Source: Trypanosoma brucei
Taxonomy: Eukaryota
Reading direction: 5' to 3'
NCBI GenBank assembly: GCA_000002445.1
Contig: CP000068.1
Span: 480,001 to 544,000 of the forward strand
Length of the DNA: 64,000 bases
In this document: positions 18,342 to 44,285 of the stretch, in pieces
Numbering within the stretch: position 1 is the stretch's first letter
Layout: every line of letters begins with the position of its first letter
Position numbers and translations under genes: made by a program
Notes under the pieces: generated by a model
What the model was told of the DNA's origin: nothing
What the model saw: the letters and a program-made list of their open reading frames with translations, nothing else
Databases searched by the model: none

Positions 18342-21300
18342 ATTACCGGCTATATAAGGGTCCCAGTATATATATATTTGACACCTCTCTACAGGCAACA
18401 ACTGTGGTTATATCCCTCCTATATTCGGACCTTCCAGTCGGCGACCTGTAGGAATTGCTATGGGAACGAAAAGCACTCCTAACCTCCAGAATCTCTTATG
18501 TGCTCTTTCTCGAGGAAAAAAAGAAATTACGAAAAAAAGCTCCAACGGCAGTAAGAAGGTAAGGCAGGGAACACAGTTGTATTCGGTACCCCAAATCGGT
18601 ACTACAAGAAACAAAGCCGATAATGTCATATGAAACAAACAACAAAAAGGGGAAAACATTTCAATAAGGGACAGCCTTCGGCTGCAGAGTTTTCCTTTCC
18701 CGTACTCACGTCTCAGTTGGTGTTTCAGTAAAAAAGGGTTCTTCCACATGCATGCGGATTACTACAGAGAGAACACAACCAGAAATCAATCACCACCGTT
18801 CAACGATGCATCTCAAACAATAAACATCAATGACCTGCTTTTCCCCGAGTGAGGGAATAGAATGAAGAGCAATTACATTTCAAACGACAAAATATCAATA
18901 GCAATTTAGAAATACTATAAGAGAACACATCACCGTACTATTTGAGCCGAAAGACATCAGGTGTGTATGACATCCCGTTTTAAGCAAGGAACAGACACTT
19001 AAAAAGTACTCAAAATTGTAAAGCAGCGATGCCGCCGTTACGTAAAGCAATATCACACGGGAAATACAAGGCTTCGCGTACCGAGGTAGTGGTTCAACAA
19101 CTGTACAAATACCGGTAAGATATCAAACAAGTTGACTGAGTATGCTGGAGGAAGTTACCAACTACACAACAAATACTTTGTTCTCAACCGTATACAAGAG
19201 TTTTTAAAAAGGATATGATCTAAGGTATTTCATGCATCTGCTTGCCATTTGAACAAATAATTAAAATGCACCCCGCGTTCTACAACGAGCGGCTAAATAA
19301 TAACAACAATAATACAACGATGATGAATTAAAGTAAAAAAAAAATGATGATCTACACGCAAACGCGGTTGACACCCCGCAGCGTAAAAAGAACAAACGAA
19401 CACTCAAAACTGTGAGGGTAGAAACAATGGAAGCAGTACGTCAATGAGTAAAACAAGCCCTTGCTTTGGGGGGAGGTAAATAATACGAAGCATCGAAATT
19501 CACGCTACTTTAAAGTAAATTCCTCTCGCGAACTTCAACCGTTAGTTTGAATTACACACACCACTGGATTAATTCCCTCTCTTCAGAGCCGTGTCAAATA
19601 CTTCCCATCCGAAACATCGGCAAACATGCAGGGATGACAGCGAATGCTTGTCACACCTCAATATATACAATCCATAAAACACAAGACAATACCAGGTTCT
19701 GTACACATCAGTCAGTTACGAAAGCCGTAACACGGTAATTGGTTAAATACAAACGTAAGCATGCGGATGTTAGTGCATGTATCCCGCCACAGCAAGGGGA
19801 TCCGGAAAAAGAAACACCAAAATGAAGCCAGCAACGTCTAAAAGTAGCGCAATCGATCAGACAGATGCGAAGACACACGATGCAGACATTTTTTTTAAAT
19901 GCAGCAGCAGTTCTCCACCGACAAATATTACAACGAAAACAGAATATTCCACGACACTAATCCCACTAAACGGAAAAAATGGGTCAGAACATCCACCAGC
20001 CGCACACTTATGTTAGAAAGCAACGCCACTCCATCCCGCACAAACATCCAATGCCCTCTCTGAAGGTTACAACTGCCCTGCATCTGCGTTGAAACAGACT
20101 AACAAAAAATAAAATAAAATAACCGCCTCTGCCTTCAAAGGGGGTGGGGGCTGCACTCGCCTGCGGCAGCTCTCTTAAAAAACGGCCGCGCTTACTGTTG
20201 TGCCTCCGCTGACGTTGACATTTGGCCAGAAGAGGTGAAGGGCTACTGCTCACAGAAGGAGACGCCGCACGAAAAGCTGCGAGGATAGCACACGGCCATG
20301 TACATGCCGGAGAGGGGCCGCGGCTTCAACTGGCATTGGTGCAAGTGCGCTCAACAATGGTGCGTAAAGTACTCACCGCGGTCCCATTAGCAGCCACCGG
20401 GGCGGTACATTTCAAGCCACAGGCTGCAGGTGGTGAGGTGCACCAATCCGCTTGCCGCGTCGCCACTTCCGCCGGTTATCAATACCAAGTGGTAATTAGG
20501 GCGGGGCCCCCGCAAGAAAAAAAAAACGAAACAGCCACCAAGGAGCAAACGGTTGAAAGGGGCAAAAAAAAAAAAATAACGGCAAAGAAGCGCGAGGCGC
20601 CCGCCGACCTAACGACATTGGCAGGGTTGCTTTAAACGGCACCGCCAAAGCGAGAAACAACACCCCCACTTGAAAGGGCCGCGCGGACGTCGACCGGGCT
20701 TCATTAGCGGTGGGAATCTCTGAAAACATCAGGCACGCAAATACCCGGGCGCGGCCTGCACACCATACCGGTTGTTCCTTGTTTCTGGAGGCTGTCGCGT
20801 GTCATCAAGACGGTACCTACTGTAGTGTGCCTTGTGGAACGTCCATCGATGACAGATACGGGCGAGAGTGGAGACGGTCCCTCATTTCTTGAGGAAAAGG
20901 CAACCCCCCCCCCCCAAAAAAAAAAATAATAATAATGAAAAATGCAGGTAATAGTATTCGCCGGCGCACCTCCCCTTTAATTTCGTTTGGAACGTTTCCT
21001 GCAAGATTAAGGAGGGGATTATGCGTCGCACACGGAAGGGCATGATAGAACTAACCCGAAGAAAAGTAACGACAACCTTCCTATTCGTGCTTTCTCACCG
21101 TTGGATAAAGGGTAATGGTCAAACGGGCAGAAGAACCGACTTCACGCTACAACAATGCTCGGTGGGGTGGGTGGTAGTCAACGCAGCCGCGTTGAAATTT
21201 GAAAAGAGAAGAGCGGTGAAATACAAACTTGAGAACAACCAAAACGATAAAACATGTAGATGTGAGCTTTTGCGGAAAACTCGCCTTGCCGGAAGAGATT

Positions 21301-24300
21301 GCTTCCTTCGTCGAGTCACAGACATCTGCGCAGTGCGGCGTACCGGACAATGGCGCCGCGGCTTGGCAGGTGGCCGCACAACTGGGTGCATCAGCTGAAA
21401 GTAAACGAAGCGTCGGAAATACACCGGAAAGGAGCCAGAGTGGCGACGGTATTAAGGGTAGAATTGCTGTCACCACGTCTACAGTAAAAACTTTGGATAG
21501 AGGCGATCGTTGTGGAAGCACCCGCCGAAACACGTTTCAAATAAATCTGCAACCGTGCTCCCAAGGGAAAAGGCAAAGAAAAAAAAAGGGAAGCAGCGAC
21601 GGAGGGGAGACGTTGAGAGGTTGCTCTTTTCTCAGGTACGCTAGCGGATGGAGTGTTTTTAAAAAATATTCGCCCGTTGTCCCAGTGGCAGAAAGAGGAG
21701 GGGAGGCATTTGGGGAAGTGGTCGTAGAATAGTTAACATGCACATAAAGAAAGGAATTGCCTAACAGAGTTTTCGTATTTTGGACAACAGAGGTTGCTGG
21801 GGGATCATGAGCGTGGGAGCCTTAAGCCTCCAGCGGTTCCCGGTCGTGAGCCCCTTCAAAAAGCAGCTGAGTAGCTGTTGAGTCTACAACGATAGATTTG
21901 AGAGAGAGATAGAGGAGGGTAATTAGCGGACCCAACTTATTCTGTGCCTGTGGCCCCGCAATTATAAGAGGGTTTCATTTCTTGACAGTTGAGGCTCTTG
22001 CTGCGGTAGACTGGTCTTGAGTTTTTTTTTCCAAGCACAGCCCAAACTGACAGGAGCGGCGACTGACTCAAACACCTTTATCAATTTTGCTACGATCGCA
22101 TCACTATTTCCGTCCCATGTCATTGTAGTATAAACTGGTAGTCGCTTCTTGCTCCATTCAAACGGTGGGGAATCTCTGAGGCAGCGGTCTCCTCCGCTTC
22201 TCAAGGCAGTTCACATGCATAACTTATCTTGCAGAGGTGCTGTTGTGGCTGGTGATGAGCAATTTGACATTCATTAATTGGTAAGTAGTTTAGAGGAGCT
22301 CAAAGGCGTTATTTGATACGGCAGTTGGTTGTTTTGTTTGGAAACAAATTGGGGTCATATTGGTTCTAACTGTCCGTAATAGGGCGGCTCGGACAATCCG
22401 AGGGAGTTTTTCCCCTTTCAATTACTATTCATCACGGGATTTTCAATAATTTTATTGTTCATACTTTTTTTCGTTTATTGTAATTTATCATGAAAATGCG
22501 TGTGCCAATAATTTTTTAAATTATAATTTCTATTTGTCATTTCGTTTTTTTCTCTAAATTTCTTTTTACAATGTTTTTTATTTTCATCGAGATGAAACTG
22601 GATTTTCGGTGTATGAGGTTTTAAATTGAATATTAGTGGGTTATTGTAGCTATTTGTTGAAGGAACATCTTGTTTATTTTACTCTGTTGTTTTATATTGA
22701 GGTCTCCCCTATGTTTTCACTGATGGTTGGGGTTTTGTGTGGATTATTCTCATTTCGTTTTTTCTTTTTGGCGCCACGACCGATCGCTGATGTGTCTGGT
22801 TATTCGATGTGCGTTAAAAAAATTTAAATGGTCGTGCGGACATTCTTTGGCAGTTGTGTGTCAATGGAGACGTGCACGTGAATCGCCACTTTGTTTCAAG
22901 TAGACATGTTTTAATTTTTTAAACCTAAACCTAGCTCTCTTGAAGCGTTGCACAGTCTGGTCGGTGAAGTTGCAGTTGGTGCAATTTTTTGCTCTGTGGG
23001 ATCAATGCTTGCTCTGCTTGTACATCCCGATATGTAGGCCCTGATATGGGTTCTAAATAATGTTGTTTGGGTAATTAATAGTGTTTGATGACGTGTTTGC
23101 TGGTGTTTTCATATCGAACCTACTTGTTGTTTGCAATGCCGTGTGACATATCTTCCCTTTCGTGGAGCATTTTTTTTTAAATAGAAAAAAGTTTCTTGTG
23201 GCGCTTTTTATCTTTTATATTTTAGGGAGATTAAAATTTGATTTTCAACCGTTAAAAAGTTCTTGTTATTTATTTTCTTTCCCACTTTACCTTGAGATTA
23301 ATGTTGTTGATGCTAGGTAGTTTATGTTCCGACGTAGTGATTAATTGTTTAGTTTGTATTGTATGCTTGTCCATAGTTCGTTTATTCTTACGGATGCCTT
23401 AGTGGTGCAGATACATGGGAGTCGTGCTGTGAATAGACAAAAAGAATAACTATATACTTTGAAGATTAACAGATTGCACCTCTCCGGGGGAGGGTATACC
23501 ATTTTTGTTGTTGATTTCACGTATTTTGCGGATTGACCAGTTTACCACTTCAGGCCCAGTAACAGTTGTTCTAAGATCATTGATGTACTTTTTATTTGGG
23601 TATCCTGTATATTTTTATCAAAAGGTTATTTTCTATTACACGCAAAGTTTCTCGTACCTGTAGAAATGCTCTTGGGTTAACTGCACTCTTTACTTACATT
23701 GTGCTAATGAGTGATATGGACGTATGTGTCCAGTTGAATATTATTTTTCTCGCGTATTATGTGTTTAATGTTTTTCAATTGCTCCCCTTTCCTCATCTCC
23801 GTCATTTGTCCTCTTATCTTTGCTAGACAATAATGGTAAATGCATCCGATAGTAAACAGCACTTGCCTAAAAAAAATTATACTTCATACGGTGCTATTAT
23901 TATTTGTAGGCAAGTGCTGTTTATCACTGTTATTATTATCATTAATGTTATCTTTTGTGAATCTTGTGGCTGGCTTTATCTTTTTTACTTTGTTGTTACT
24001 TTCCCCTATTCTGCTGTTACTGAAACATGTTTCGTCGACTATGTGATACACAATTTTGTTATAACGTATGTGTTTGAGTTAATAGATGTAGATAAAAGAT
24101 GCCACTCCATAATGCATTTTTATTGGTTCATTTCTCTTCCGGAGGAAGATGCTTCCATTTTTTTATTTTTTAGAAATTTAAATGGGTTTATTTAATTATG
24201 ATTGTGTACGGCACATTTTAAACCAGATTTCGCTCTGTTTTGTTAATGTACTTATGCCAAAATGCGGGGTATTTTGTTTTATAAAGTGTTAAATTTATTT

Positions 24301-25211
24301 TCTGATCTTTGTGGTGCGTAACGAAAATTTAACACCAACGATCACCCTCGGACAAACCACTTTAGATATTAAATAACCGGAACTACTATGATCCTAACAA
24401 TATATAAGAATATACAAACATCTGTAAAGTTTTAAAATTTGTATATACTTATAATTTAAGCGCCTGAGCAATGGCCAACTGCATCGTTTAATATCACTTT
24501 CATTTTTCATTTTTTTTTAAAAAACGATGTCTGTGTTGTTATTGATCGGAGAAAAATTAGGAGGTTGCGTGTTATTCTATTTACCCTCCTAACAGTCACT
24601 TTCTTTTTTTTTCACGACGATTTCATCTCACTTTGAACCCAACGAGTTGTGTGATTTTATTGCCAGAATATGCGCTGTTACCTCTTTGAAAATTCATAGT
24701 TCATGCTTTTTGAATTCAACGCTTGAGTTTTATCGAAAAGAAGCGAATGAAGTCTTTTCCCTTTTCATCGTTGTGTTGCGGCACCGATGCTTTTTTTTTT
24801 CTGGCTCCACTTACGAACAGTTGGAAAAAATATTTTTCCTAGTGCGAGTGCAGAGCAACTGGTCAGCTTTAAAAAGTTTTTTTTAGAATGCTAAACTTTA
24901 AAAAATAATATCGTGTTGTCATCCAGATACATTTTAGAAAATGGTTAGCAACTGGGATTGCAAGTCATATATTCTGGCACACGTTGATGTTTGGTTTGAT
25001 ACATATTTTATTGTGTTATATTTTTGCTATTATTTTATTGGGGAATTTATCTTCGATATGCGCTCATAAGCACCGACTTCTTTTTATATTTGTACTACTA
25101 CTGCAACCTGACCACCGTTCATATGTGTATATATATTAACTACAGTTTCTTGCTCGAAGGGTCCGGCACCTTAAGGTACATTAGCGTAGTAAGGTTGTTG
25201 GATTTACCGCG
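18342..25211. promoter_or_regulatory. divergent strand-switch region, candidate bidirectional RNA pol II transcription start region
   Basis: All confident genes to the left are on the minus strand and all to the right are on the plus strand. The roughly 7 kb interval has no long conserved-looking ORF. It contains a GC-rich block (about 20150-21750), an AT/T-rich block (about 22400-24650) and a C13A11 homopolymer (20904-20927). In trypanosomatids, pol II initiates in such divergent regions without a classical promoter. Confidence 0.55.
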
Positions 25212-25976
25212 ATGGTGATAAAGAAGGATGTTCCTTTCAAGTACACGCTACATCAAGGACTATGTGAGCGGGATCCAGTTTTGAGCACCCCTTTGATAAT
25301 TACGGCGGGAGTAGATGGCAATGAATTGCAGTACCGTCTTGACATGCAAGTTCCATCGCATTCAGCTATTGAAGGCATGGAGGTTACTAACGTGGAGTTC
25401 CTCTTTACAAGTAGCAAATGTAACGCGGGTAAATCAAATCAACATCTTTCTAAGTGTAGCATGTTAGTGTACTTGTACATGCAACTGCTTGATGGTGTAG
25501 GCAGACCCACGAGTCCACCGTTTCCTATATCATGTTGCAACACCCATACTGGGAAAGGCATTTTTTCGTGCGTAAAGCTGCCCCTTCAGGTTAATCAACA
25601 GTGCAGATTCTATTTGGTTCGAAGAAGTTGTACAGATAGTGCTTCCCAGAGTGCTATGGAACTTAAGGGTGTGCGCTTTACCAGTAAGTTGTACCTTTTG
25701 TATCGTTCACCGCTGAATTCTGCAAAAGTTCGGAGTCAGATGGACGTACTCACAGGTGGCGATCTAAAATTTACGGCAGATACCGAAGTAATGACTTCTA
25801 CCGGTGCGAAACGCAGTCGTGAGGAATTAGAGCGATTCGGATCTGAAAATTCTGATCGCAAGGGGAAAAAAGCAAAGAGGGAAAGGGAAACGGCGACCAC
25901 GATGGATAGGGCTTCCGATGATGAACCCCCAAACCTTATTTATGCCTTCGTGTCAGGAGGAGACAATGAGAGTTAA
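25212..25976 (+). CDS. hypothetical protein, first ORF of the plus-strand array
   Basis: 254-aa ATG-initiated ORF, the only long ORF inside the strand-switch interval. Codon composition resembles neighbouring genes. The C-terminus is basic and acidic (KRSREELERFGSENSDRKGKKAKRERE). I recognise no domain. Counting it makes the gene total match the locus numbering I recall for this chromosome-5 segment, which is weak support. Confidence 0.4.
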   Translation: MVIKKDVPFKYTLHQGLCERDPVLSTPLIITAGVDGNELQYRLDMQVPSHSAIEGMEVTNVEFLFTSSKCNAGKSNQHLSKCSMLVYLYMQLLDGVGRPTSPPFPISCCNTHTGKGIFSCVKLPLQVNQQCRFYLVRRSCTDSASQSAMELKGVRFTSKLYLLYRSPLNSAKVRSQMDVLTGGDLKFTADTEVMTSTGAKRSREELERFGSENSDRKGKKAKRERETATTMDRASDDEPPNLIYAFVSGGDNES

Positions 25977-27905
25977 TAATTGTGCGCATATTAAGTTCGC
26001 CATCCCCCCCCCCCCGAGGCATGCTGTCAATATTTTTGACCGTCGCATTATCACATTGCGGCATTTTTTTGCCTGTAGTTCCGTTTTTTCTTGGTGATTT
26101 TTGTCGGTTTTACCTTTTCGATTTATACATATCTACATTGCCACGATTAAGATCCGCTTTCTTCATGTTAATGAAAACAAGCATCATTACTTTTCTCCTC
26201 TGTGACATGTAAATTCGCAAAAAAAAAAACTCTTTCCCCACATTTTCTTAGTTTTAATGTAGTACATACGGTGGTTCATAATTTAGATGGCTGCTATTTT
26301 CTAATGCTTAGATTCACAAAATACTTTAAATAAGTAAAGTGAAATTGGCTATGCATTTTTGGACAAGTGTTTAAGGCCTTGTGTGAATAACATTACTTAA
26401 CTTTCTGGATTGCTGTATAAATGGTTGAGATGACACTACTTTTTTGTTTTTTTTAATTTTAAAGATGAGCAAGAGGGTGTTTGTGGTTTTCTATGTACCT
26501 CATTAATTTCATACAGCGATAAATTTCTATCATTCTGGAAGTGGGTTTCATTTGCGAGGGAATCAATTGAGATGTTGGTTTTTCAACGTTGCGAGAGAAT
26601 CTCTTGGACTGCTGCAATGACACAGGAAGTTACAACATTGATGTCACTACATTTTTATTGGCAAAGGCGATCGTAAGAGTGCGCGGTATATATTCCCCAA
26701 CGTGAAGGGGGAAATGCGTAAAATATGCATGTGTGTGAGCTTGGCCCTTTACAAAATATAAAATATAACAGCAGAGTAGTAGCATTCTACGGTTTCTGTT
26801 AGACTTTCCATCTTCTTACTGCAATGATGTGAGTTCCTTTGTTACGTGTTTCTTTTGTTTTTGCAGTGTGACTCAATTGGAGATATCCGGGCGTCTGTAC
26901 CGGGGTACGCGCAACTAATGAAGGAAATACTTTAGTATCAACTATTTTTCTTTACCTTTTGCGGAACATTTTTAAAAATTATTATTATTTTGACCGTTGT
27001 TATGTGATATTAAAAAGTTGATAGTGTTCATTTGTTTTGGTTTTATTACACCGAAGACTCGCTATCGGTGTTTTTAGTGTATTTTCTCAGTTATCGTTTT
27101 GCTTTCCTTAGCAGCACGTGGTCAAGGGTTCGATTTTTTTCCCCCTTTGCCATTTGCAGGTGTTTTTGCTGCGACACGGTAAATGGGGATGCCAGCAACT
27201 GAGTTGTCCTGGTAGCTTGGGCAGATATGTCATTTTTCAATTCTACCCAACATCTACAGTTGTTTGATTCATTTCTCTCTTATTTTTATTTTTTACTTTG
27301 GTTTTTTTAAACATTTGGAAGATGACATCCTGAAGGATCGGGGTGATATACCTTCTAAAACGATAAATGGCACGGGGCTGCAATTTAACAGCAAGTTACT
27401 ACCTCAGGAATTACTGGTGATGAACTAAGGTAGTGAAGACCATGCGCGCAGTCCTGTTCGCTGCCGTACCGTCCGTGTGCGGTTTGTAAACAGCTGCAAA
27501 CTTACTTTCTTTTATCGATCGATTTGTTTTTTTAAAGATAAACTTTTTGCAAGGGATTTTGATGTACTCAATTATTTTTGTAAATATACGTGGTTTCGTC
27601 ATTCGAAAAATCTTTGAACACGCGGCAATTCTTTAGGTAACTGTGGGATCGCGTCTTCTTTTTATGCGACGGCATTTAAACGTAGGAGCTGCTGTTCTGT
27701 GAGGTTGCTGTGACTTACTCTGCACCATGGTTGTTCACTGCTCCCTTAATGCTTCTATTTTTTGAAATGTTTAAATCTATATCCCATCGTGTTTAACGCA
27801 CTTGTAGGAAAACCCGCGGAGAACAACATTTATTTTTGTCATCATTAATGCTATTATTACCCTTTTTTTTTGCAATCTCTTAATAGGGTTTACGTGGTCA
27901 TTTGA

Positions 27906-29762
27906 ATGAGTGAACCATTGATGGCTAGGTGTGCATCTCTGCTGGACATCTTGGTTCCCCGTAGTGTTGAATGCTTAAGCAATGCGAAGGTACAGAACGA
28001 ATCGTGCTGCGCTATACAGTACGACCGAATTTTGCGTGTCCCGGTTCTGATTATGAAAGGAGACATCTCGAATGCCCGTGTTCAGATACCGCGTGATGGC
28101 AAATCACTTCCTGTAGTTCCGCTGCCGTGCACTCTCGTAGCTCTCCAGGCGTACATTGGATCTTTTGACACCTTTGCGTTGGAGGTGTCAGTGAGCACTA
28201 AGACTTCTCTTCGCGTGAAGCTGATTATTGGGACTCACTTTAACAAGACGTCGTTGGAGGACACCGGTAGCAGTCTGATTCTCTTTAGGATGCCCTTGAT
28301 CATACCGCGAAACAGATGGGTTCAAATAGTATTTCACATTTCAGGAATCGTAACGCATCTTCTTGAACTGCCGCCAATTAAATTCATCGACGCAATATCA
28401 TTGAGTGGCACATGTAAGGCTTCGCGCTTGATGGCATCCAATAGTGAGGAGGTTGTAGTGAACGCAACACCCAGTGACATGACTCTCTTTGCTGTTCCGG
28501 CGTATGCGCCCCCGATTTGGCAGACCGTTGCGGCCTCTCCACCCCCGAACGGGACCTGCAGTGACAATAATAAAAAAATTAGTGGTCGCTCTCCACAGAA
28601 AGTTGCTAAAGACCGCTTACCCGTTGTAGTGAAGTCGCCATTAAGAAGGGACGATGATACTGCCAATGAGGGTGAAAACGACTCACCAAAGCATAATGTG
28701 GTGCGAACAGCTGCTACAAGTGCTTCTAACGGCACACCATCGCCCCCGTACAAACAAATAGGGCGCGAGGTTTCGGCTATTGAGAGTACATCAAGCGCCA
28801 ACTCCTTTGATGTGCCGCCGGAAGGTCGGGCGCCAAGTTTGCCAGGTGACTTTACAGATGCCCGCCGAGTCAAGCAGATGCCTAAGCAACAGGTCGGTCA
28901 GCCCGCTGCGAGGTGCGGATCTGCCGCTTACATACGGCTGGTAAGCGGAGCGAACTTTCCGCCACGTAGCAGCAGTAACCCGACTGTGAAACCGCGTCCG
29001 CTTCACTTAGGGGCAAAGGAACAGAGTCCTAGTGCGGTTACAACTCCCCCGCCACCCCCTGTCGAAACATACCCGGGTGTATGCGATCTTTTGTTTGATG
29101 CCTCGTATGGCATCACAGGTTGGGGGGAAACCGCCTGTCGTGCAAGTACTGCTGCTTCAGCCTCTCCTCCTCGTGCCGGAAGCGATGTAAAGTGCAGGTC
29201 GGCGCCAACTGCGGCAGTACCAACCAACCGAATATCTGGTGGTGCAGTGAGTGAGTGTAAAACGAACGGATTAGCGGAGCAGGTTTCCCCGAAAGCGAAA
29301 CGGTTGAAAAGGGTTATAGAAATAAGGCGGCGGTCATTCGTCCCCCCCACTAGGCGCCGGAAGCCGTGCGGTGGTGATGGTCAAAACGGTGAAGGCAACG
29401 AAACAGGGGCGGCCGCGGGCGGTACGTCCAGGAGGTCTGCTGTTAGTGTGAGGCGGCTTTACATGCGAAAGAGGATCAGGAAACTAAAGGAAGCACAGAA
29501 CAGCGCACGTCGCATGCAAGAAATGAAAAGACTTCCAGCGTCTGAACTACCCATAGACCCTCAGGACGAGGCACTTATGATGGTTGGTGAAGAGACAATG
29601 AATGTCACGCGTGAGCCACGTTGTGGTTACGGTTTTGGTTATCTTGGTGTCCTTCATGAGAGTGGCGGATTTGAGGCGGATGAGAATGCTGACACGGAGT
29701 TGAAGGGCGCTCTCACGCTGGAGCTTTCCGAATTATCCGATGGTGAGGAAAATGAAGAATAG
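27906..29762 (+). CDS. CFAP20/DUF667-domain-containing protein with long disordered S/P/A-rich C-terminal extension
   Basis: 618-aa ORF with ATG start. The N-terminal roughly 190 aa follow the CFAP20 (BUG22) pattern: FALEVSV...LRVKL...FRMPLIIPRNRWVQIVFHISG...GTCKASRLMAS corresponds to the CFAP20 blocks FEVQV...MPMRLDDGWNQIQFNL...ANCRIRRV. The remainder is low-complexity with a KR-rich patch (RRLYMRKRIRKLKE). Confidence 0.5.
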   Translation: MSEPLMARCASLLDILVPRSVECLSNAKVQNESCCAIQYDRILRVPVLIMKGDISNARVQIPRDGKSLPVVPLPCTLVALQAYIGSFDTFALEVSVSTKTSLRVKLIIGTHFNKTSLEDTGSSLILFRMPLIIPRNRWVQIVFHISGIVTHLLELPPIKFIDAISLSGTCKASRLMASNSEEVVVNATPSDMTLFAVPAYAPPIWQTVAASPPPNGTCSDNNKKISGRSPQKVAKDRLPVVVKSPLRRDDDTANEGENDSPKHNVVRTAATSASNGTPSPPYKQIGREVSAIESTSSANSFDVPPEGRAPSLPGDFTDARRVKQMPKQQVGQPAARCGSAAYIRLVSGANFPPRSSSNPTVKPRPLHLGAKEQSPSAVTTPPPPPVETYPGVCDLLFDASYGITGWGETACRASTAASASPPRAGSDVKCRSAPTAAVPTNRISGGAVSECKTNGLAEQVSPKAKRLKRVIEIRRRSFVPPTRRRKPCGGDGQNGEGNETGAAAGGTSRRSAVSVRRLYMRKRIRKLKEAQNSARRMQEMKRLPASELPIDPQDEALMMVGEETMNVTREPRCGYGFGYLGVLHESGGFEADENADTELKGALTLELSELSDGEENEE

Positions 29763-31077: not shown

Positions 31078-31746
31078 ATGGTTTTACCAAGCCGCAGGTC
31101 GCTGAATCGCAGCTCCCGCAAGGGCTTCAAGAAGCACCGTCCTGACATTATTGTTATTGACCTGAAGGACCATGTATTGGGTCGTGCGGCCGCCATCGTC
31201 GCCAAGCAGCTGCTGCTCGGAAAGAAGATAACTGTGGTCCGTTGTGAGAAATTAACAATTGCAGGATCGGAGATTCGCAACAAGATCAAGTACCTGCAGT
31301 TCCTTCGCAAGCGGAAGCTGTCAAACCCGAAACTTGGACCATTCCATCATCGCAGTCCCTCTGATGTGTTTATCCGCACAGTTCGCTCCATGCTGCCGCG
31401 TTACACAAAGCGAGGCCAGCGCGCGCTCCGCCAGCTCGTTGCTTACGAGGGCGTACCCGTCAACGTCGTGCGTACCGGCGGTCGTGTGGTGATTCCCAAG
31501 GCGCAGCGTCACAACTGCTACCGTAACGAGCGCCGCTTCACGGTGTTGGGTAACATGTGCAAACACGTTGGATGGAAGTACAGCGACGTTGTGGAGAAAC
31601 TTGAGGCAGCCCGTATTGAAAAGTCCGGGCGTCACCACAAGAAGATGGAAAAGGTTCGCGTCGCTTGGAAGAATGCCCGCAAGGAGGCCCTCAAGAAGAT
31701 GCCCCAGAAGAATGTGGAGGTTCTCAAGAAGTTTGGTCTTGCGTAA
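31078..31746 (+). CDS. RPL13A: 60S ribosomal protein L13a (uL13)
   Basis: 222-aa ORF with ATG start. It is strongly basic. Conserved L13a blocks include VIDLKDHVLGRAAAIVAKQLLLGKKITVVRCE and KYLQFLRKRKLSNP. Confidence 0.9.
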   Translation: MVLPSRRSLNRSSRKGFKKHRPDIIVIDLKDHVLGRAAAIVAKQLLLGKKITVVRCEKLTIAGSEIRNKIKYLQFLRKRKLSNPKLGPFHHRSPSDVFIRTVRSMLPRYTKRGQRALRQLVAYEGVPVNVVRTGGRVVIPKAQRHNCYRNERRFTVLGNMCKHVGWKYSDVVEKLEAARIEKSGRHHKKMEKVRVAWKNARKEALKKMPQKNVEVLKKFGLA

Positions 31747-34680: not shown

Positions 34681-36672
34681 ATGCGCCCCAACTCGATGCT
34701 CCCAAACATTCCAAGAGACGTTTCCCCTCACGTTGTAGCGAACAATAAAACTTCTCCACGGAACACTCCTCACCACCCGGCACTTGCGGGGGTTGGGGGT
34801 CTTCCCTCCACACTTGTGGTTACTAGCGGAGAGGAGTTAACGGAGGAATCAAAAACATACACGCCCATCATCACTGCTTTGCGGGAGCGAGTTGCCAATT
34901 TGGAAGAGGCGCTACTTACTGCCTCCCGTTGTCTGGAGTTGGCAAAGTCTGTTGATGAGAATAACGACAGCTCCACACGTAACGCCGGGGTGCATCAGCA
35001 ATACTTTTGCGTTGATGAGGAACCATCACAGAATGGCGGCAACGAACTGATTAGCACCCGTGATGTAAACCTTACGGCAACATGGCCGCAAAAACTGCCC
35101 TCATGGTCACACGGAGAGAAGTTTCAGAAGTATAGGAAGGATATAACCAGCTGGTTTGGTTGCAATGAAAAACTAGTGGTTGACAGTTCCCCTGCGACTG
35201 AGATGGACGGGTCTGAGGAAGTAGTGGTGGTGCCGTGTGGTGGAAACGGGGGCGCCAGTACCAGTTGGAAGGTGCCAACGTCCTCCAACCTCCATGTTGA
35301 GCCGGTTATTGTGATAGATGTCACTGGCTTTGTGATGGCAAAAAGGGAGGCGGAGGCCAGCGCCTCGGCTGGTCGTACCGGTAACGAGGAACTGAAGGAT
35401 GATCTTACCGTGATTATTCGTGAGTTGAACGAAGAAAACGAGAGACTTCGGGAGGAGACTGCCGAGGTGGTTGTTAAACTAAGCGAGGAGAACAAGAAGC
35501 TGAAGGAAGAGACTTCCGAGGTGGTTGTTAAACTGAGCGAGGAAAACGAGAGACTTCGTGAGGAGACTGCCGAGGTGATCTACAAACTGAGCGAGGAGAA
35601 CAAGAAGCTGAAGGAAGAATCGAGTGAATTGGCTCGGCGTGTGGAAGAACGGGTAAAGCAGCGGCAGGATGAATCTGCTCAGGTGCCGTGGGATCTGACC
35701 GATGAGGAGGGCACAATACTCGGCAGACCCCCTGCGATGTGGCCGCCTTTGAGCGCCGCTATCCAGGAGGACCAATGTCGAGAAGCACAATTGGCGACGC
35801 TGCAAAACAACTTGAAAAATGCCGAGAGTAAACTTTCAGTCCTTCAGCAAGAGCGTGATGCAGCCCTTTCCGCAAGTAGTGATGCTGAGAAGTCGCTTGC
35901 ATCGTTACGAAAGGATAATGCGGCGTTGAGGGCAGAGGGCGTGCGGTTGCGAAGCGAAATGGAAAAAGCAAAAGATTTGATCTCCCAGTTAGAAACGGGG
36001 CTTAGTTCATGGTCAAGTAAGGAACGTGAGCTGCAGCGTCTTCGCATTTTGATGCGGTTCTCGGAGCTTAAGAAAGACAGCGACAGACTACCTGATGTCC
36101 TCGGGCAGGTACAGCAGCTCGAGGAGGAGCGTGGCCGCTGGTTGGAGGAGAAGAGGCGTTTCCGTGACATGATTGAAAGATACCAGCGCCGCCTGGAGGA
36201 ACTCGAGTGCGAGTGTAACGTTCTCAAAGAAGGCAAGGCAGTATACGTTGAGGCGGAGAAAAATGCGGGGAGCTCCCCGGTTGGGCCCTCGCCTGGCGTG
36301 TCGAGTTCGTGCGACTCGATGTCAGGTGGGCGTGCCCCTGCCGAGCGCACATCGGACTCAGGTCAACCACCCAGCGAAGGCAGTAGTAGCAGTGTTAGCA
36401 CTGTTCAGATATTAGAGGTGAAGCCGCAACATCGGCCACAGCGTCCCGCAACTGCCATGGTAGGAGAAAAACGACTGTCTGGAAGTGCGGCACTGAACTT
36501 GAGGAGACTTCAAAGCGTTACTGAAAGGCCGCGCTCCAGCAGACCTGTACTTTCCATCAACAAGATATACACAGCCGCCGCAAATGCCAGCACCAACAGA
36601 AGCCCAAGGCTCAGGAAGCTGCTCAATGACGTGACATCTTCAAGAAAGAAGAGGCGGTCCACAACCTACTGA
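34681..36672 (+). CDS. coiled-coil protein with four 21-aa (63-bp) tandem repeats
   Basis: 663-aa ORF with ATG start. It has alternating repeats: EENERLREETAEVVVKLSE and EENKKLKEETSEVVVKLSE. The downstream segments are heptad-rich (LQNNLKNAESKLSVLQQERDAALSASSDAEKSLASLRKDNAALRAEGVRLRSEMEKAKDLISQLE). Confidence 0.7.
   Translation: MRPNSMLPNIPRDVSPHVVANNKTSPRNTPHHPALAGVGGLPSTLVVTSGEELTEESKTYTPIITALRERVANLEEALLTASRCLELAKSVDENNDSSTRNAGVHQQYFCVDEEPSQNGGNELISTRDVNLTATWPQKLPSWSHGEKFQKYRKDITSWFGCNEKLVVDSSPATEMDGSEEVVVVPCGGNGGASTSWKVPTSSNLHVEPVIVIDVTGFVMAKREAEASASAGRTGNEELKDDLTVIIRELNEENERLREETAEVVVKLSEENKKLKEETSEVVVKLSEENERLREETAEVIYKLSEENKKLKEESSELARRVEERVKQRQDESAQVPWDLTDEEGTILGRPPAMWPPLSAAIQEDQCREAQLATLQNNLKNAESKLSVLQQERDAALSASSDAEKSLASLRKDNAALRAEGVRLRSEMEKAKDLISQLETGLSSWSSKERELQRLRILMRFSELKKDSDRLPDVLGQVQQLEEERGRWLEEKRRFRDMIERYQRRLEELECECNVLKEGKAVYVEAEKNAGSSPVGPSPGVSSSCDSMSGGRAPAERTSDSGQPPSEGSSSSVSTVQILEVKPQHRPQRPATAMVGEKRLSGSAALNLRRLQSVTERPRSSRPVLSINKIYTAAANASTNRSPRLRKLLNDVTSSRKKRRSTTY
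35400..35640 (+). repeat. in-frame 63-bp tandem repeat (about 4 copies) inside the coiled-coil gene
   Basis: The DNA-level repeat gaggagaacaagaagctgaaggaagagacttccgaggtggttgttaaactgagcgag alternates with gaggaaaacgagagacttcgtgaggagactgccgaggtg... Confidence 0.8.
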
Positions 36673-37769
36673 TTTCGTCACGGATGTAGTTTGTATATAC
36701 CTTCAATGCGAGGGTTGTCGTTGGTTTCGTTTTTTTTGTTTTTAATCCTTCCTTTCACTTTTTCACGCTGCCATGGTCAGCTTACCTCACCCCGACAGGT
36801 GGAAGGGCATGTCAATGTATCAGTGTGCTGCCCGTGCCTTCGGCTATATGTACGAATACACATATTTATTTGTTTGATCATACGCATTGTTTTTTCTTTT
36901 GTTTTCCGACCGGTGAGGTTCAGTGGGAAAACGAAAAAGCAATATATATATATATTAAAAAACGGGTCCCTAGAAGCAAAATTCAGAGTGGAACGCTTTG
37001 CAGTAGACCAAAAGGAAGAAATACGCGCTTGCGTACTTTCCCAGTCTTGTAGATGAGTTCTCAACATCACTTTTTTCTTTGAAAATCTTCTATTTGTTTC
37101 AAGTAAAAATTTTCATTTCCACCCTGAGCCCCGTTGGTTGTGCTACGGTACCTTACTCTTCTCTTCCTCTTAGTATATTACTACTTCCACGCATTTCTTC
37201 CCGATGATCCTTTTTTTTTTTTTTAAAAAGGAATACACCTACCGTTATTTCTTACCCCCTTTCAGTGAATGTTATCAAAACTAAGCTAAGGCATTAATAC
37301 CGTTAATACCGCAAAACGCTATACAAGAAAGGCCTCCACTAGCGAAAAGCAGATATCGTAAGTTTAAAAGGAAAAAGGTGTTGCGAAGTGTATAGCAAAT
37401 ATATTGTTGTGGGAGGCACTAGCCGGTTTGACATGGTGAGGAAGTCAGTAGAAGAAAAAGACAAAGAACAGCCACATGTTCAAACTTGCGGTAACTTCAG
37501 TCGAACACAATCGACCTAGGAAACTACACCTTCCCCCTTTTTTGTTTTAGTCTACAAAACCATTTATATTCGTGCACTTGGCCGTCACCAGGCCCTGGGC
37601 CACACATCCTCTGACTCGTATCTTTTCCTCTTTCACTTATGTGTGTATGTGTTTCATTGGTCGTAATTTTACCCCTCTTCTATAGCTCAAGAAGTGTTGT
37701 AGTGCACATTAAAGCCGACCGCATCTGTTGGTGTGCTGCATTTGTGTTCGTGCCCTTCCTTTGACGGCA

Positions 37770-39821
37770 ATGAGCGGCAGTGCAACTACGGCTCTGGCCC
37801 CTCATGAGTATCGTGAGCAGTCAGAGGCCGGTGCCAATCTGTCAGATTGTGTATTTCAATCAACAGCGTCTGTAGAGGTTGAGAGCGCATCTGGTGCAAT
37901 TGTTACTCACAGGTTAGTGGATGAGGAGTCGGGCATGCGGGCAGATGCCAACTCTCGCTGCGCTAATGGGACTGAAATGCCTGAAGTAGCCCATGTTAGC
38001 GATGAGTCTCGTGTAGATGCTGCAGAGGGCGTTGCGCCTCAAGTCTCCATGAAATTGGATCAGAGAGCGGATCAAAACTGCACAGATGCGGCGGAACGTT
38101 CTGGTGGTGCTGTTTTAACTCAACCTAGTGGCGGTGGTTGCGGAACAGGCAAGAATGCCAATGATCCAGCCATGGTTTCATGTGTAGCGGCGAAAGACAT
38201 GCTTGAAGTGAAAATGGGTAAGAAGACAATGGGACGGGCAGATCCCGTACATAGTGCGGGGCTTAGTGCCATTATGCGTCCTCGTTTGATGACTGTGGCC
38301 CGTAGAGGGCAGGCAGTTGCATCTTCCCTTTCGACTGAGTCTCTGGCAGTGCGTGCTGCTTCGTCGACCAAAGATGGTCATGGTGAGCGAGTTGCAACTC
38401 ACGTGAATGCCACAACCTCCGATGTTGTAGGCGCTGCATCAGATATCCAGTCTAATAGTGTGCCAAGTGCAGAACCACGGTTGAGTGGCCGGCATAATGA
38501 TGATGAATCAAAGCAATCTAGTACAGGTATGCATGTCGCTAATCACAATAACCACGATCATCGTAGGCAGGATGCATTTGCACCCCAAGTACGTTCTTCA
38601 GGTGTTGTTACTACTGTTTCTACTGCTATTACCAATGCCGTCCCAGTGCCTGCGAATGTTACTTTCACAACGTGGGCTTCCAGCGGTAGGAACCCTCGTC
38701 CAATAGTTGCTCTTAGTGTTCATCTGTCTGAGCTGTATCGGCGCATAGATGAGTTATGTTGTCAACAAAGAAGGATGGCAGAACCAGAGCCAAAATACAA
38801 TGATGGCTTCGATGACAAGGAGGGACATTACTTGGTTCTTTATGGTGAGGAGATACTCAATCGGTACACTGTGCGTGAGTTACTGGGGAAGGGTAGTTTT
38901 GGAACTGTCGTTCGATGTTTTGATGCGAAACGACAGAAGAATGTTGCACTCAAGATAACTCGTCGTGGACTTAGTTTTCGAGCGCAGGCGGAATTGGAGT
39001 TTGACATCCTCTCGGGCCTGAACGGAAATCCCCGTCTCAATAACCTCGTTGTGAAGTTATTCAAGGCGTTTAATTGGCGGGGACACCTTGTCCTTGTATT
39101 TGAACTGCTCACCTACAACTTGTATCAACTCATCAAGCACACGGGTTACCGTGGAGTTGGACCTCGTGTGGTGCGGAAGTTTGCCTTTCAGTTGGTCCAA
39201 GCTCTACGTGAGCTGGAGGAGGCGAAGCCCAGTCCAATCATTCACTGCGACATCAAGCCCGAGAATATACTGCTGAAGTATCCCAATCGCAGCAGCATCC
39301 GCCTCATTGATTTTGGCTCCGCAACTTATACCAACAATGTTATCCATCGTTACATTCAAAGTCGTTATTATCGCAGTCCTGAGGTTATTTTATACTTGGA
39401 ATATGGAACTGCGATTGACCGATGGTCATTAGGCTGTGTGCTTGTTGAGTTATATACGGGGTTACCGCTATTTGATGGGAAAACAGAGGCAGCACAGCTT
39501 GCACGTTTTGAAGCTCTGCTTGGCCCCGTGCCAGTTGATATGTTGGAGTCATCACCGAAACTAAATGGATTTTATGAAAAAGTGGGTCGGAACTACAAAT
39601 TAAAGGAGCCTCTTCCGCCGCATCGGTCCCTGAAAGCCGTTCTCGGTCTTATGGATGGTGCCACTCCTCAAGAAGCTCGCAGGATTCCATTGGAAGATGA
39701 GGTGGAGGACGCCCTTCAGTTATATGACTTTGTTAGCCGCCTTTTGCGCTACAGAGCCTCTGAGCGCATGAGTTGTGAGGAGGCATTACGTCACCCCTTT
39801 TTAGAACCGATGAAGCGATGA
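37770..39821 (+). CDS. DYRK-family dual-specificity protein kinase
   Basis: The track ORF starts at TTG (37728). The first ATG at 37770 gives MSGSATT... The C-terminal kinase domain has LGKGSFGTVV, VALKI, HCDIKPENILL, DFGSA and the DYRK activation-loop signature YIQSRYYRSPEVIL. The N-terminal roughly 380 aa are a low-complexity S/A-rich extension. Confidence 0.8.
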   Translation: MSGSATTALAPHEYREQSEAGANLSDCVFQSTASVEVESASGAIVTHRLVDEESGMRADANSRCANGTEMPEVAHVSDESRVDAAEGVAPQVSMKLDQRADQNCTDAAERSGGAVLTQPSGGGCGTGKNANDPAMVSCVAAKDMLEVKMGKKTMGRADPVHSAGLSAIMRPRLMTVARRGQAVASSLSTESLAVRAASSTKDGHGERVATHVNATTSDVVGAASDIQSNSVPSAEPRLSGRHNDDESKQSSTGMHVANHNNHDHRRQDAFAPQVRSSGVVTTVSTAITNAVPVPANVTFTTWASSGRNPRPIVALSVHLSELYRRIDELCCQQRRMAEPEPKYNDGFDDKEGHYLVLYGEEILNRYTVRELLGKGSFGTVVRCFDAKRQKNVALKITRRGLSFRAQAELEFDILSGLNGNPRLNNLVVKLFKAFNWRGHLVLVFELLTYNLYQLIKHTGYRGVGPRVVRKFAFQLVQALRELEEAKPSPIIHCDIKPENILLKYPNRSSIRLIDFGSATYTNNVIHRYIQSRYYRSPEVILYLEYGTAIDRWSLGCVLVELYTGLPLFDGKTEAAQLARFEALLGPVPVDMLESSPKLNGFYEKVGRNYKLKEPLPPHRSLKAVLGLMDGATPQEARRIPLEDEVEDALQLYDFVSRLLRYRASERMSCEEALRHPFLEPMKR

Positions 39822-40228
39822 AATTAGCTGGCAATTACTCCAAGCGCCTATCCCATGTCAGATGTTGATATGAGAAGAAAACAAAGGTGATGAAGTAAGA
39901 AATGGATGCGATCGGTAAGGGAAGTGAGAGAAAGCGAAAGAGAAAGAGAAAAAAGAAAAGAAGGAGAGGGTGAAAGCGTCACTTCGTTTATGATTGCCCA
40001 GGGCTGAGAGTAACAACAGCAGCAACAAAGTAATAAACACCGATGCTAACGAACGGGTGAAGGGAGTTGTTTGGGAATCTGATGAGTAAAGAGAGGATGA
40101 GGAACGCCGGCGGTGAAATAAAAAAAATGTCTGGCAGCTGCAGGGTGACTTGAAGTGAAAAAAAGAAAAAAAGAAAAGCAAAATAGTACCCATCCAATAT
40201 GCGTTCCCTGGGAGTCTGAGTGAGGGGT

Positions 40229-40302
40229 GAGGAGAGGAGAGGAGAGGAGAGGAGAGGAGAGGAGAGGAGAGGAGAGGAGAGGAGAGGAGAGGAGAGGAGA
40301 GA
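40229..40302. repeat. (GGAGA)~15 pentanucleotide microsatellite
   Basis: gaggagaggagaggagagg... read directly. The complement is a perfect polypyrimidine (TCTCC)n. Confidence 0.9.

Positions 40303-42403: not shown

Positions 42404-42404
<1 letters not shown>

Positions 42405-42443
<39 letters not shown>
42405..42443. repeat. compound microsatellite (TA)~10(TG)~11
   Basis: Read directly. It is one of more than 10 simple repeats in the 39.9-44.2 kb spacer. Confidence 0.85.
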
Positions 42444-43385: not shown

Positions 43386-43393
43386 TCATCATC

Positions 43394-43444
<51 letters not shown>
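43386..43444. repeat. (TTA)~19 trinucleotide microsatellite
   Basis: attattattatt... run read directly. Confidence 0.9.
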
Positions 43445-44141: not shown

Positions 44142-44220
44142 TTTTTTTTTTTTCGTTCCAGGGAGGGGGGCGAGAATATAGGAAGTTTACGCCACTATTT
44201 TTTTTTCTCCTTCTTTGAAG
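44142..44220 (+). promoter_or_regulatory. polypyrimidine tracts with downstream AG dinucleotides, candidate SL acceptor region for the PP2C gene
   Basis: T14-CG-TTCC-AG at 44142-44160, and ttttttttctccttctttgaAG at 44197-44220. The ATG is at 44286. Confidence 0.4.
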
Positions 44221-44285
44221 CTACACCGAGATTGATTATCAAGTGTGAGGCTTCAAAATTACGCTAGTTGAACGTTATTTTTGAG

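What the first reader, a model, noticed from the sequence alone, without database searches (positions are those of the whole stretch)
27906..29762. CFAP20 (DUF667) fold fused to a 400-aa disordered tail
The first roughly 190 aa follow the conserved block order of the flagellar/ciliary inner-junction protein CFAP20 (EVxV...MP...W.QI.F...CR..R). The protein is three times longer than CFAP20, and the remainder is S/P/A-rich with a basic patch. This looks like the CFAP20-domain-containing (CFAP20DC-like) paralog family, whose function is poorly defined even in model organisms. In a flagellated parasite it is a candidate axoneme-associated protein.
Basis: inference. Interest (0 to 1): 0.5.

Follow-up and report, generated by a model that had tools for sequence, protein, structure and literature searches.

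The report
Divergent trypanosome CFAP20DC-type protein
This Trypanosoma brucei gene (inferred to be Tb927.5.1600) encodes a diverged member of the uncharacterised CFAP20DC branch of the CFAP20 flagellar-protein family: a CFAP20-like domain followed by a long tail with lineage-specific conserved motifs, so it is real and correctly recognised but its function is still unknown.

The parts
27906..29762 (+). Complete coding sequence, 618 aa plus stop codon; inferred to be Tb927.5.1600 (UniProt Q57VA3 / XP_844834.1 belong to the same 90%-identity cluster)
   Evidence: ORF. 100% identity to T. b. equiperdum DPX39_050021800; cluster members. Gene ID inferred from flanking genes: the Tb927.5.1590 TrypTag tagging primer matches 25934-25973 exactly, and Tb927.5.1610 is a translational-apparatus gene matching the L13 ORF at 31078-31746.
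27860..27886 (+). Polypyrimidine tract (27860-27881) and AG dinucleotide (27885-27886): candidate trans-splice acceptor about 20 nt upstream of the ATG
   Evidence: Read directly from the sequence. Its function is inferred from general knowledge of trypanosome mRNA processing and was not tested.
27936..28499 (+). CFA20-type beta jelly-roll domain, CFAP20DC subclass (aa ~11-198)
28485..28520 (+). Family-invariant segment LFAVPAYAPPIW (aa 194-205): last beta-strand of the domain plus the start of the tail
   Evidence: L194-Y200, P202, P203 and W205 are invariant and A201, I204 are at least 90% conserved across 25 sequences. Strand 193-197 in the models.
28500..29285 (+). Disordered S/P/A/G/T-rich linker (aa 199-460) with two conserved islands
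   Evidence: pLDDT below 50. S+P+A+T+G fraction 0.51. Poorly alignable between genera.
28929..28943 (+). Conserved island YIRLV (aa 342-346)
   Evidence: Y342, R344 and V346 are invariant across 25 sequences. Y[VI]RL[VI] is also present in the more divergent relatives P0036-P0044.
29109..29126 (+). Tryptophan-acidic island ITGWGE (aa 402-407); W406 is the only Trp in the 408-aa tail
   Evidence: W406 invariant and G405 at least 90% conserved. The island is present in 33 of 43 family tails against 3.4 expected from shuffles.
29286..29531 (+). Basic region (aa 461-542, net charge +20), including the predicted long Arg/Lys-rich alpha-helix at aa 508-542 (29427-29531)
   Evidence: Helix 508-542 has pLDDT 72-82 in the full-length AF2 model. 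Charges. R516, R519, R521, R523 and L527 are at least 90% conserved.
29538..29555 (+). Conserved island ASELPI (aa 545-550)
   Evidence: S546 invariant; A545, E547 and P549 at least 90% conserved.
29616..29720 (+). Near-invariant C-terminal block PRCGYGFGYLGVLHESGGFEADENADTELKGALTL (aa 571-605)
   Evidence: G574, G576-G581, L583, G587, G601, A602 and L605 are invariant across 25 sequences. The G[YF]GxGx[LM] core is present in 42 of 46 family members. pLDDT ~36-42, so it is not predicted to fold alone. Not detectably related to the C-terminal motif of other CFAP20DC proteins (hhalign probability 0.3%).
29721..29759 (+). Acidic C-terminal end (aa 606-618, net charge -7)
   Evidence: An acidic end is conserved in the family.

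Best explanation
WHAT IT IS (shown). The gene is a protein-coding gene under purifying selection, conserved across trypanosomatids. Its N-terminal ~190 residues are a CFA20/DUF667 beta jelly-roll belonging to the CFAP20DC (C3orf67) subclass. CFAP20DC is an uncharacterised branch of the family that also contains the doublet inner-junction protein CFAP20 and the centriolar wall protein WDR90/POC16. This gene is not the trypanosome CFAP20, which is a separate gene whose product is the one seen in the solved T. brucei doublet. The tail has about 260 disordered residues, then a conserved Arg/Lys-rich helix, an ASELPI island, and a near-invariant C-terminal GYGFGYLGVL...GALTL block with an acidic end. 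These tail motifs are specific to this kinetoplastid-type family. They stand in the place where animal, plant and oomycete CFAP20DC proteins carry a YDP..CYYDP..KYYEL ending.

HOW IT MOST LIKELY WORKS (inferred). The jelly-roll docks on a tubulin lattice or a microtubule-microtubule junction, as the CFA20 domains of CFAP20 and WDR90 do. The long flexible tail then presents short linear motifs that recruit one or more partners. The basic helix may add affinity for the acidic tubulin surface. The site is probably a specialised or sub-stoichiometric one, such as the basal body, transition zone, flagellar tip, central pair or cytoplasmic array, and not the repeating 8-nm inner-junction position.

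CONFIDENCE. About 0.9 for the identity and family assignment and about 0.4 for the microtubule-tethered adaptor mechanism. The figure given is a blend of the two.

For: Subclass: a profile search of 1.84 billion representative proteins found 23 family members at E < 1e-30, then 74 hits at 1e-8 to 1e-3 that match only the N-domain. All 74 score higher against a CFAP20DC reference than against human CFAP20 (median 120 vs 25 bits). Sources name them CFAP20DC or C3orf67 homolog, and all eight sampled non-euglenozoan hits pass PF05018 at 64-136 bits. hhalign gives 99.7-99.9% (E 2.6e-27 and 7.7e-34) to CFAP20DC and 6-76% (E 6e-3 and 2.4e-5) to CFAP20. Pairwise BLAST gives E 4e-10 to hemichordate CFAP20DC and E 0.06 to human CFAP20.

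Not the inner-junction subunit: no PDB chain matches the protein or the family profile, although T. brucei and L. tarentolae doublets are solved and contain canonical CFAP20. CFAP20 is built with 8-nm periodicity in the CFAP20/PACRG inner-junction ladder, and that paper names paralogs only for CFAP67, CFAP106, PACRG and RIB72. The domain evolves fast (47% identity T. brucei vs Leishmania), whereas CFAP20 is ~90% identical from human to stramenopile, fungus and dinoflagellate.

Tail: conserved islands; helix 508-542 at pLDDT 72-82 and C-terminal block at ~36-42; charge dipole of +20 then -17.

Mechanistic precedent: DUF667 domains of WDR90/POC16 from seven species bind microtubules and free tubulin in vitro and decorate cellular microtubules (PMC7500955). 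FAP20 forms the inner junction (PMC4004596). Every named CFAP20DC-type hit comes from a lineage that builds flagella: fish, mollusc, hemichordate, rotifer, Marchantia, Tetraselmis, Phytophthora and Willaertia.
Against: There is no localisation, interaction or phenotype data for this gene. Tb927.5.1600 does not appear in the main text of any paper in the library. It is absent from the held, truncated TrypTag tables and from the held supplements of an axoneme-asymmetry study, an APEX2 flagellar proximity proteome and a nuclear proteome. The T. brucei sequence alone fails the Pfam gathering threshold. The C-terminal motif that marks CFAP20DC elsewhere is absent, so strict orthology is not proven as opposed to an old lineage-specific paralog. 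I did not survey the T. brucei proteome for another CFAP20DC-like gene and did not include WDR90 domains in the comparison. The faster evolution of the domain could mean its tubulin-binding surfaces have changed. Human CFAP20 also has a separable nuclear function (PMC12935552), so a CFA20 fold does not guarantee microtubule-based function.
Confidence: 0.55

Rival explanations
1. It is a true axonemal inner-junction (or other doublet-lattice) subunit: a CFAP20 paralog that substitutes for CFAP20 at some positions along the flagellum, with the tail projecting into or out of the B-tubule.
For: It has the same fold as CFAP20. Trypanosomatids do use paralogs of inner-junction proteins (PACRG A/B, CFAP106 A/B) to build complex repeats. 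Solved maps mostly average distal doublets, so a proximal, tip or doublet-specific paralog could have been missed.
Against: No chain in any solved structure matches the protein or the family profile, including the T. brucei and L. tarentolae doublets. CFAP20 is built with 8-nm periodicity, and no CFAP20 paralog is reported. The domain is only ~19% identical to CFAP20 and evolves much faster (47% vs ~90% identity over comparable or larger evolutionary distances), which is hard to reconcile with the multi-partner packing at the inner junction. It is absent from the held APEX2 flagellar proteome tables (weak evidence).
Confidence: 0.1
2. It is mainly a nuclear, nucleolar or nucleic-acid-associated protein. 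The Arg/Lys-rich region (aa 461-542) would act as a nuclear localisation signal or an RNA/DNA-binding helix, and the CFA20 domain would have a non-microtubule role like the nuclear role of human CFAP20.
For: Basic clusters KRLKR (465-469) and RRSAVSVRRLYMRKR (509-523), with net charge +20 over 82 residues. Human CFAP20 localises to the nucleus and limits R-loops independently of its ciliary role (PMC12935552). The profile of the C-terminal region weakly resembles basic helices of nucleic-acid-binding proteins, but not significantly (E 0.039).
Against: Not found in the held supplements of the T. brucei nuclear proteome paper (weak evidence). Every named CFAP20DC-type relative comes from a flagellated lineage, which points to cilium-linked biology. 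Basic helices are equally typical of microtubule-associated proteins. The similarity is compositional and not significant.
Confidence: 0.15
3. It is the trypanosome counterpart of WDR90/POC16: a centriole or basal-body wall protein of that family.
For: WDR90/POC16 also starts with a DUF667/CFA20 domain followed by a large C-terminal extension, and it sits on triplet microtubules.
Against: No WD40 or any other Pfam domain is found in the 420-aa tail, and the tail is predicted disordered or helical, not a beta-propeller. No WDR90-like protein (CFA20 domain followed by WD40 repeats) appeared among the 97 profile hits; all second-tier hits are CFAP20DC-type. A basal-body location is not excluded, only membership of the WDR90 family.
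Confidence: 0.03

Closest known systems
CFAP20DC (C3orf67; 'CFAP20 domain-containing') of animals, with unnamed counterparts in Marchantia, Tetraselmis, Phytophthora and Willaertia
   Same: The N-terminal CFA20 domain belongs to the same subclass (hhalign 99.7-99.9%, 164-165 aligned columns; BLAST E 4e-10). The overall architecture is the same: domain at the extreme N-terminus, a long low-complexity tail and a short conserved motif at the very C-terminus. The function is equally uncharacterised: literature hits are almost all about the antisense lncRNA.
   Different: Only ~21% identity in the domain. The C-terminal L[DE]L[LV]YDP.L.CY[YF]DP.T.KYYEL motif (weak OCRE-like hits) is absent. In its place are a GYGFGYLGVL...GALTL block plus an acidic end, which is not detectably related (hhalign probability 0.3%). 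YIRLV, the Trp-acidic island, the Arg-rich helix and ASELPI are specific to the kinetoplastid-type family.
CFAP20 / FAP20 / BUG22 (doublet-microtubule inner-junction protein; PDB 9e2g_1V in T. brucei, 9e78_X, 6u42_3W, 7rro_XA)
   Different: CFAP20 is a ~190-aa single-domain protein that is ~90% identical across eukaryotes. This protein is 618 aa and ~19% identical in the domain (E 0.06). It is encoded by a different gene from the T. brucei CFAP20 seen in the solved doublet and is absent from all solved doublet structures.
WDR90 / POC16 (centriolar microtubule-wall protein)
   Same: An N-terminal CFA20/DUF667 domain used as a module in a larger protein. That domain binds microtubules and tubulin directly (PMC7500955), which is the precedent for the mechanism proposed here.
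   Different: WDR90 carries WD40 beta-propellers after the domain. This protein has none.

Membership tests
Pfam PF05018 CFA20_dom (DUF667) | HMM match at or above the curated gathering score (24 bits) | tested here: inconclusive
   T. brucei full-length protein: no hit. Residues 1-200: 18.3 bits, E 0.0019, below the cut-off. However, 13 of 19 orthologous N-domains match at E <= 0.1 (best 2.6e-9) and the divergent relative P0041 scores 49 bits. Membership therefore holds at family level but not for this sequence on its own.
Pfam PF05018 CFA20_dom (DUF667) | CFAP20-type beta jelly-roll fold | tested here: met
   [not shown]
CFAP20DC (C3orf67) subclass | N-terminal domain closer to CFAP20DC domains than to canonical CFAP20 | tested here: met
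   hhalign 99.7-99.9% vs 6-76%. All 74 distant hits of the whole-library profile search are CFAP20DC-type. BLAST E 4e-10 vs 0.06.
CFAP20DC (C3orf67) subclass | Architecture: domain at the N-terminus followed by a long low-complexity tail with no other globular domain | tested here: met
   No other Pfam domain. Residues 199-460 are disordered, followed by a helix. Same layout as the CFAP20DC-type hits.
CFAP20DC (C3orf67) subclass | Extreme C-terminal YDP.L.CY[YF]DP.T.KYYEL motif | tested here: not met
   Absent from this protein and its family. Their C-terminal block is not detectably related (hhalign probability 0.3%). The motif was detected in only 26 of 74 CFAP20DC-type representatives, several of which are short or truncated sequences, so it may not be strictly defining.
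CFAP20DC (C3orf67) subclass | One-to-one orthology (no other CFAP20DC-like gene in trypanosomatids; clade membership in a tree that includes WDR90 domains) | not tested
   No tool here holds a T. brucei proteome to search, and WDR90 domain sequences were not included in the comparison.
Canonical CFAP20 (inner-junction protein) | ~190-aa single-domain protein with very high conservation (~90% identity across eukaryotes) | tested here: not met
   618 aa; 19% identity and E 0.06 to human CFAP20, whereas CFAP20 orthologs are ~90% identical across supergroups.
Canonical CFAP20 (inner-junction protein) | Observed at the A-B inner junction in solved doublet microtubules | tested here: not met
   No PDB chain matches the protein or the family profile. 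The T. brucei and L. tarentolae doublets contain a different protein, canonical CFAP20, built with 8-nm periodicity.
WDR90 / POC16 | CFA20 domain followed by WD40 beta-propellers | tested here: not met
   No WD40 hit even at E <= 10. The tail is predicted disordered or helical.
Microtubule-binding CFA20 modules (functional class) | Direct binding to microtubules or tubulin; cytoskeletal, flagellar or basal-body localisation | not testable with these tools
   Needs a pelleting assay or microscopy. The TrypTag entry for Tb927.5.1600 is not in the held part of the supplement.

The most novel reading that the evidence does not exclude
CFAP20DC is an ancient third class of CFA20-domain proteins, present in discobans, plants and green algae, stramenopiles and animals, and so plausibly in the last eukaryotic common ancestor. 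It would anchor a flexible adaptor tail to a specialised microtubule junction outside the regular doublet repeat. The kinetoplastid lineage has kept the anchor but swapped the partner-binding end: the OCRE-like YDP..YYEL motif is replaced by a basic helix plus a GYGFGYLGVL block, rewiring it to lineage-specific partners. Trypanosomes would then be the first tractable system for finding out what this protein class does.
Probability: 0.25. Interest if true: 0.55.

Novelty: new variant of a known kind. Interest (0 to 1): 0.35.

Why it matters
CFAP20 and WDR90 use the same small jelly-roll to seal or decorate microtubule junctions in axonemes and centrioles. The third branch of the family, CFAP20DC/C3orf67, has no described function in any organism in the literature searched here. 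Showing that trypanosomatids have a clear, if diverged, CFAP20DC-type gene gives a genetically tractable flagellate in which localisation, knockout and partner-mapping experiments are routine. The conserved tail motifs defined here are ready-made deletion and pull-down targets. For genome annotation it is a small refinement: the gene is already labelled 'CFA20 domain-containing', and this work adds the subclass, the domain boundaries and the tail anatomy.

Tried and rejected
1. Sequence searches against the PDB, with the protein and with the N-domain profile, found no CFAP20 chain. The relationship is too remote for HMM-versus-sequence search and needed fold comparison and profile-profile comparison.

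2. The C-terminal profile against the PDB gave only a compositional match to a basic helix of topoisomerase I (E 0.039). I rejected it as not significant.

3. I tested whether the family's C-terminal block is a diverged form of the CFAP20DC YDP..YYEL motif. hhalign gave probability 0.3%, so this was rejected.

4. I tested whether the Trp-acidic island is shared with other CFAP20DC proteins (oomycete tails contain SWEDD). The count was 10 of 59 against 5.4 expected and a shuffle maximum of 10, so it is no better than chance outside the kinetoplastid-type family.

5. The OCRE assignment for the CFAP20DC C-terminus is sub-threshold only (17-18 bits against 24.7).

6. The full-length AF2 model was run to see whether the C-terminal block docks on the jelly-roll. 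The block stays at pLDDT ~36-42, so there is no support for that. Coordinates and PAE were not available to inspect.

7. Localisation and proteome look-ups: the held TrypTag tables are truncated and lack Tb927.5.1600. It is also absent from the held supplements of PMC11971395, PMC8141408 and PMC5519215. No paper in the library mentions Tb927.5.1600, Tb05.30H13.860, Q57VA3 or XP_844834.

8. I tried to find the taxon of the divergent relatives P0036 and P0041 from their contigs. There was no recognisable spliced leader, so the taxon stays undetermined.

9. The AFDB50 fold library was unavailable.

10. No tRNA or Rfam family was found in the window.
Full report
**Observation.**
The window is Trypanosoma brucei chromosome 5 sequence. 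The ORF at 27906-29762 (+) exists exactly as described and encodes 618 aa. Its product is 100% identical to T. brucei equiperdum DPX39_050021800. It shares a 90%-identity cluster with TREU927 XP_844834.1/Q57VA3 and the T. b. gambiense copy. Full-length orthologs at 41-59% identity occur in T. congolense, T. vivax, T. cruzi, T. rangeli and T. conorhini. The N-terminal third is also matched (39-58% identity over 30-48% of the query) in T. theileri and T. melophagium and in Leishmania, Porcisia, Novymonas, Leptomonas and Phytomonas. So this is a real gene under selection, not a chance ORF. A polypyrimidine tract and an AG lie about 20 nt upstream of the ATG, which fits a trans-splice site (inference).

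**Gene identity.**
The TrypTag C-terminal tagging primer for Tb927.5.1590 matches 25934-25973 exactly, which is the end of the upstream ORF. Tb927.5.1610 is listed as a translational-apparatus gene and matches the ribosomal L13 ORF immediately downstream. Tb927.5.1650 is a DYRK kinase and matches the kinase ORF at 37728-39821. By gene order, the gene in question is therefore Tb927.5.1600. This is an inference.

**The N-terminal domain: fold.**
Pfam on the T. brucei sequence alone is weak. The full-length protein gives no hit, and residues 1-200 give CFA20_dom at 18.3 bits against a cut-off of 24. At family level the link is solid. 13 of 19 orthologous N-domains hit PF05018 individually (best E 2.6e-9), and a more divergent relative scores 49 bits.

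**The N-terminal domain: which branch of the family.**
T. brucei has a separate canonical CFAP20, which is the protein in the solved T. brucei doublet (9e2g_1V). The protein studied here belongs to the CFAP20DC branch instead. Five results support this:
- A profile of the full-length family, searched against 1.84 billion representative proteins, found 23 members at E < 1e-30. It then found 74 hits at 1e-8 to 1e-3 that match only the N-domain.
- All 74 score far better against a CFAP20DC reference than against human CFAP20 (median 120 vs 25 bits).
- Most of the 74 are 500-1100 aa long with the domain at the N-terminus.
- Sources name them 'protein CFAP20DC' or 'C3orf67 homolog' in fish, mollusc and hemichordate. 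Counterparts occur in a rotifer, Marchantia, Tetraselmis, Phytophthora and the discoban Willaertia.
- Profile-profile and pairwise comparisons agree:

| Comparison | Method | Result |
|---|---|---|
| Kinetoplastid family vs CFAP20DC | hhalign | 99.7-99.9% probability, E 2.6e-27 and 7.7e-34, 164-165 columns |
| Kinetoplastid family vs CFAP20 | hhalign | 6-76% probability, E 6e-3 and 2.4e-5 |
| CFAP20DC vs CFAP20 | hhalign | 99.4% probability |
| T. brucei N-domain vs hemichordate CFAP20DC | BLAST | E 4e-10 |
| T. brucei N-domain vs human CFAP20 | BLAST | E 0.06 |

No WDR90-like protein appeared among the hits, and the tail has no WD40 repeats.

**The tail.**
'A 400-aa disordered tail' is only partly right. 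Residues 199-460 are S/P/A/G/T-rich (fraction 0.51), poorly conserved and predicted disordered. Two islands within this stretch are conserved:
- YIRLV (342-346).
- A Trp-acidic island around W406, the only tryptophan in the tail. It is present in 33 of 43 family tails against 3.4 expected by chance.

Residues 461-542 carry a net charge of +20. They include a long helix (508-542) predicted with pLDDT 72-82 and several arginines that are at least 90% conserved.

The last 76 residues carry a net charge of -17. They contain ASELPI (545-550), the near-invariant block PRCGYGFGYLGVLHESGGFEADENADTELKGALTL (571-605) and an acidic end. The G[YF]GxGx[LM] core occurs in 42 of 46 family members. That count includes unnamed, more divergent relatives whose taxon I could not establish. 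The block is not predicted to fold on its own (pLDDT ~36-42), which is typical of a motif that folds on binding a partner.

CFAP20DC proteins elsewhere end in a different motif, L[DE]L[LV]YDP.L.CY[YF]DP.T.KYYEL. It was detected in 26 of 74 representatives and gives only sub-threshold OCRE hits. The two endings are not detectably related (hhalign probability 0.3%).

**How it probably works.**
This part is inference. In the two characterised classes, the CFA20 domain binds the tubulin lattice directly. FAP20/CFAP20 forms the A-B inner junction (PMC4004596). Recombinant WDR90/POC16 DUF667 domains from seven species bind microtubules and free tubulin and decorate cellular microtubules (PMC7500955). 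The simplest model is that the jelly-roll here docks on a microtubule lattice or junction, while the flexible tail presents short motifs that recruit partners. The basic helix may add affinity for the acidic tubulin surface.

Three observations argue against a regular inner-junction position:
- The protein matches no solved chain, although the T. brucei and L. tarentolae doublets are solved.
- CFAP20 is built with 8-nm periodicity in the CFAP20/PACRG inner-junction ladder. The L. tarentolae and C. fasciculata study names paralogs only for CFAP67, CFAP106, PACRG and RIB72 (PMC7617938).
- The domain evolves quickly (47% identity between T. brucei and Leishmania), whereas CFAP20 is ~90% identical between human and stramenopile, fungal and dinoflagellate orthologs.

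A specialised or sub-stoichiometric site is therefore more likely: basal body, transition zone, tip, central pair or cytoplasmic array.

A nuclear role cannot be excluded. The basic clusters resemble nuclear localisation signals, and human CFAP20 has a separable nuclear function (PMC12935552). Against this, every named CFAP20DC-type relative comes from a flagellated lineage.

**What is known and what is new.**
Public databases already call this protein and its orthologs 'CFA20 domain-containing protein', so recognising the domain is not new. I found no paper in the library that mentions the gene by any identifier. I also found no functional study of CFAP20DC/C3orf67 in any organism; the hits are mostly about its antisense lncRNA. 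This analysis adds four things: the assignment to the CFAP20DC subclass, the domain boundaries, the exclusion from canonical CFAP20 and WDR90 membership, and the anatomy of a lineage-specific tail. I classify it as a new variant of a known kind, of modest interest.

**Limits.**
No localisation, phenotype or interaction data could be retrieved. The TrypTag tables held here are truncated, and three proteome supplements do not list the gene, which is only weak negative evidence. Orthology as opposed to old paralogy was not tested with a full phylogeny. WDR90 domains were not compared directly. The AFDB fold library was unavailable.

Noticed in passing
window 18401-25212: Divergent strand-switch region. 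All ORFs of 200 aa or more to the left are on the - strand and all to the right are on the + strand, so the CFAP20DC-type gene is the second gene of the rightward transcription unit. The DNA from 22 to 28 kb is AT-rich (GC 0.37-0.38). No tRNA or Rfam RNA gene was found here or anywhere else in the window.
   Followed up: partly
window 25212-25976 (+): This 254-aa ORF has no Pfam domain. It is Tb927.5.1590, because the TrypTag C-terminal tagging primer matches 25934-25973 exactly. TrypTag annotates it as nucleolar.
   Followed up: partly
window 39821-44268: A 4.4-kb stretch with no ORF of 200 aa or more lies between the DYRK-family kinase (Tb927.5.1650) and a PP2C phosphatase gene. It is very AT-rich (GC 0.31-0.38) with strong positive GC skew (+0.26). 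It holds perfect microsatellites (GAGGA)x14.6 at 40229-40301 and (TTA)x16.7 at 43395-43444.
   Followed up: no
window 35451-35618, inside ORF 34681-36672 (+): A 54-bp unit is repeated 3.1 times (76% matches). Because 54 is a multiple of three, this gives an 18-aa tandem repeat inside a 663-aa ORF that has no Pfam match.
   Followed up: no
proteins P0049-P0120 (CFAP20DC-type hits; not in the window): CFAP20DC proteins of animals, Marchantia and oomycetes share an extreme C-terminal motif, L[DE]L[LV]YDP.L.CY[YF]DP.T.KYYEL. It gives only sub-threshold OCRE (PF17780) hits (17-18 bits against 24.7). It looks like a conserved partner-binding element of this uncharacterised family, and I found no description of it in the literature searched here.
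   Followed up: partly
proteins P0088 (2140 aa) and P0118 (492 aa): These two sequences resemble the oomycete-type CFAP20DC hits. Their CFAP20DC-type domain sits behind long N-terminal extensions made of repeated, cysteine/histidine-containing modules. They may be gene fusions or merged gene models.
   Followed up: no
window 28334-28873 (-) and 29003-29350 (-): Antisense ORFs of 179 and 115 aa lie inside the gene. Nothing suggests they are genes; they are probably by-products of the G+C-rich coding strand.
   Followed up: no
window 16641-18401 (-): This CCCH zinc-finger ORF is listed from a TTG codon (586 aa), with zf-CCCH at residues 35-61. The real start is presumably a downstream ATG. It is the last gene of the leftward transcription unit, next to the strand-switch region.
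   Followed up: no
[not shown]
   Followed up: no
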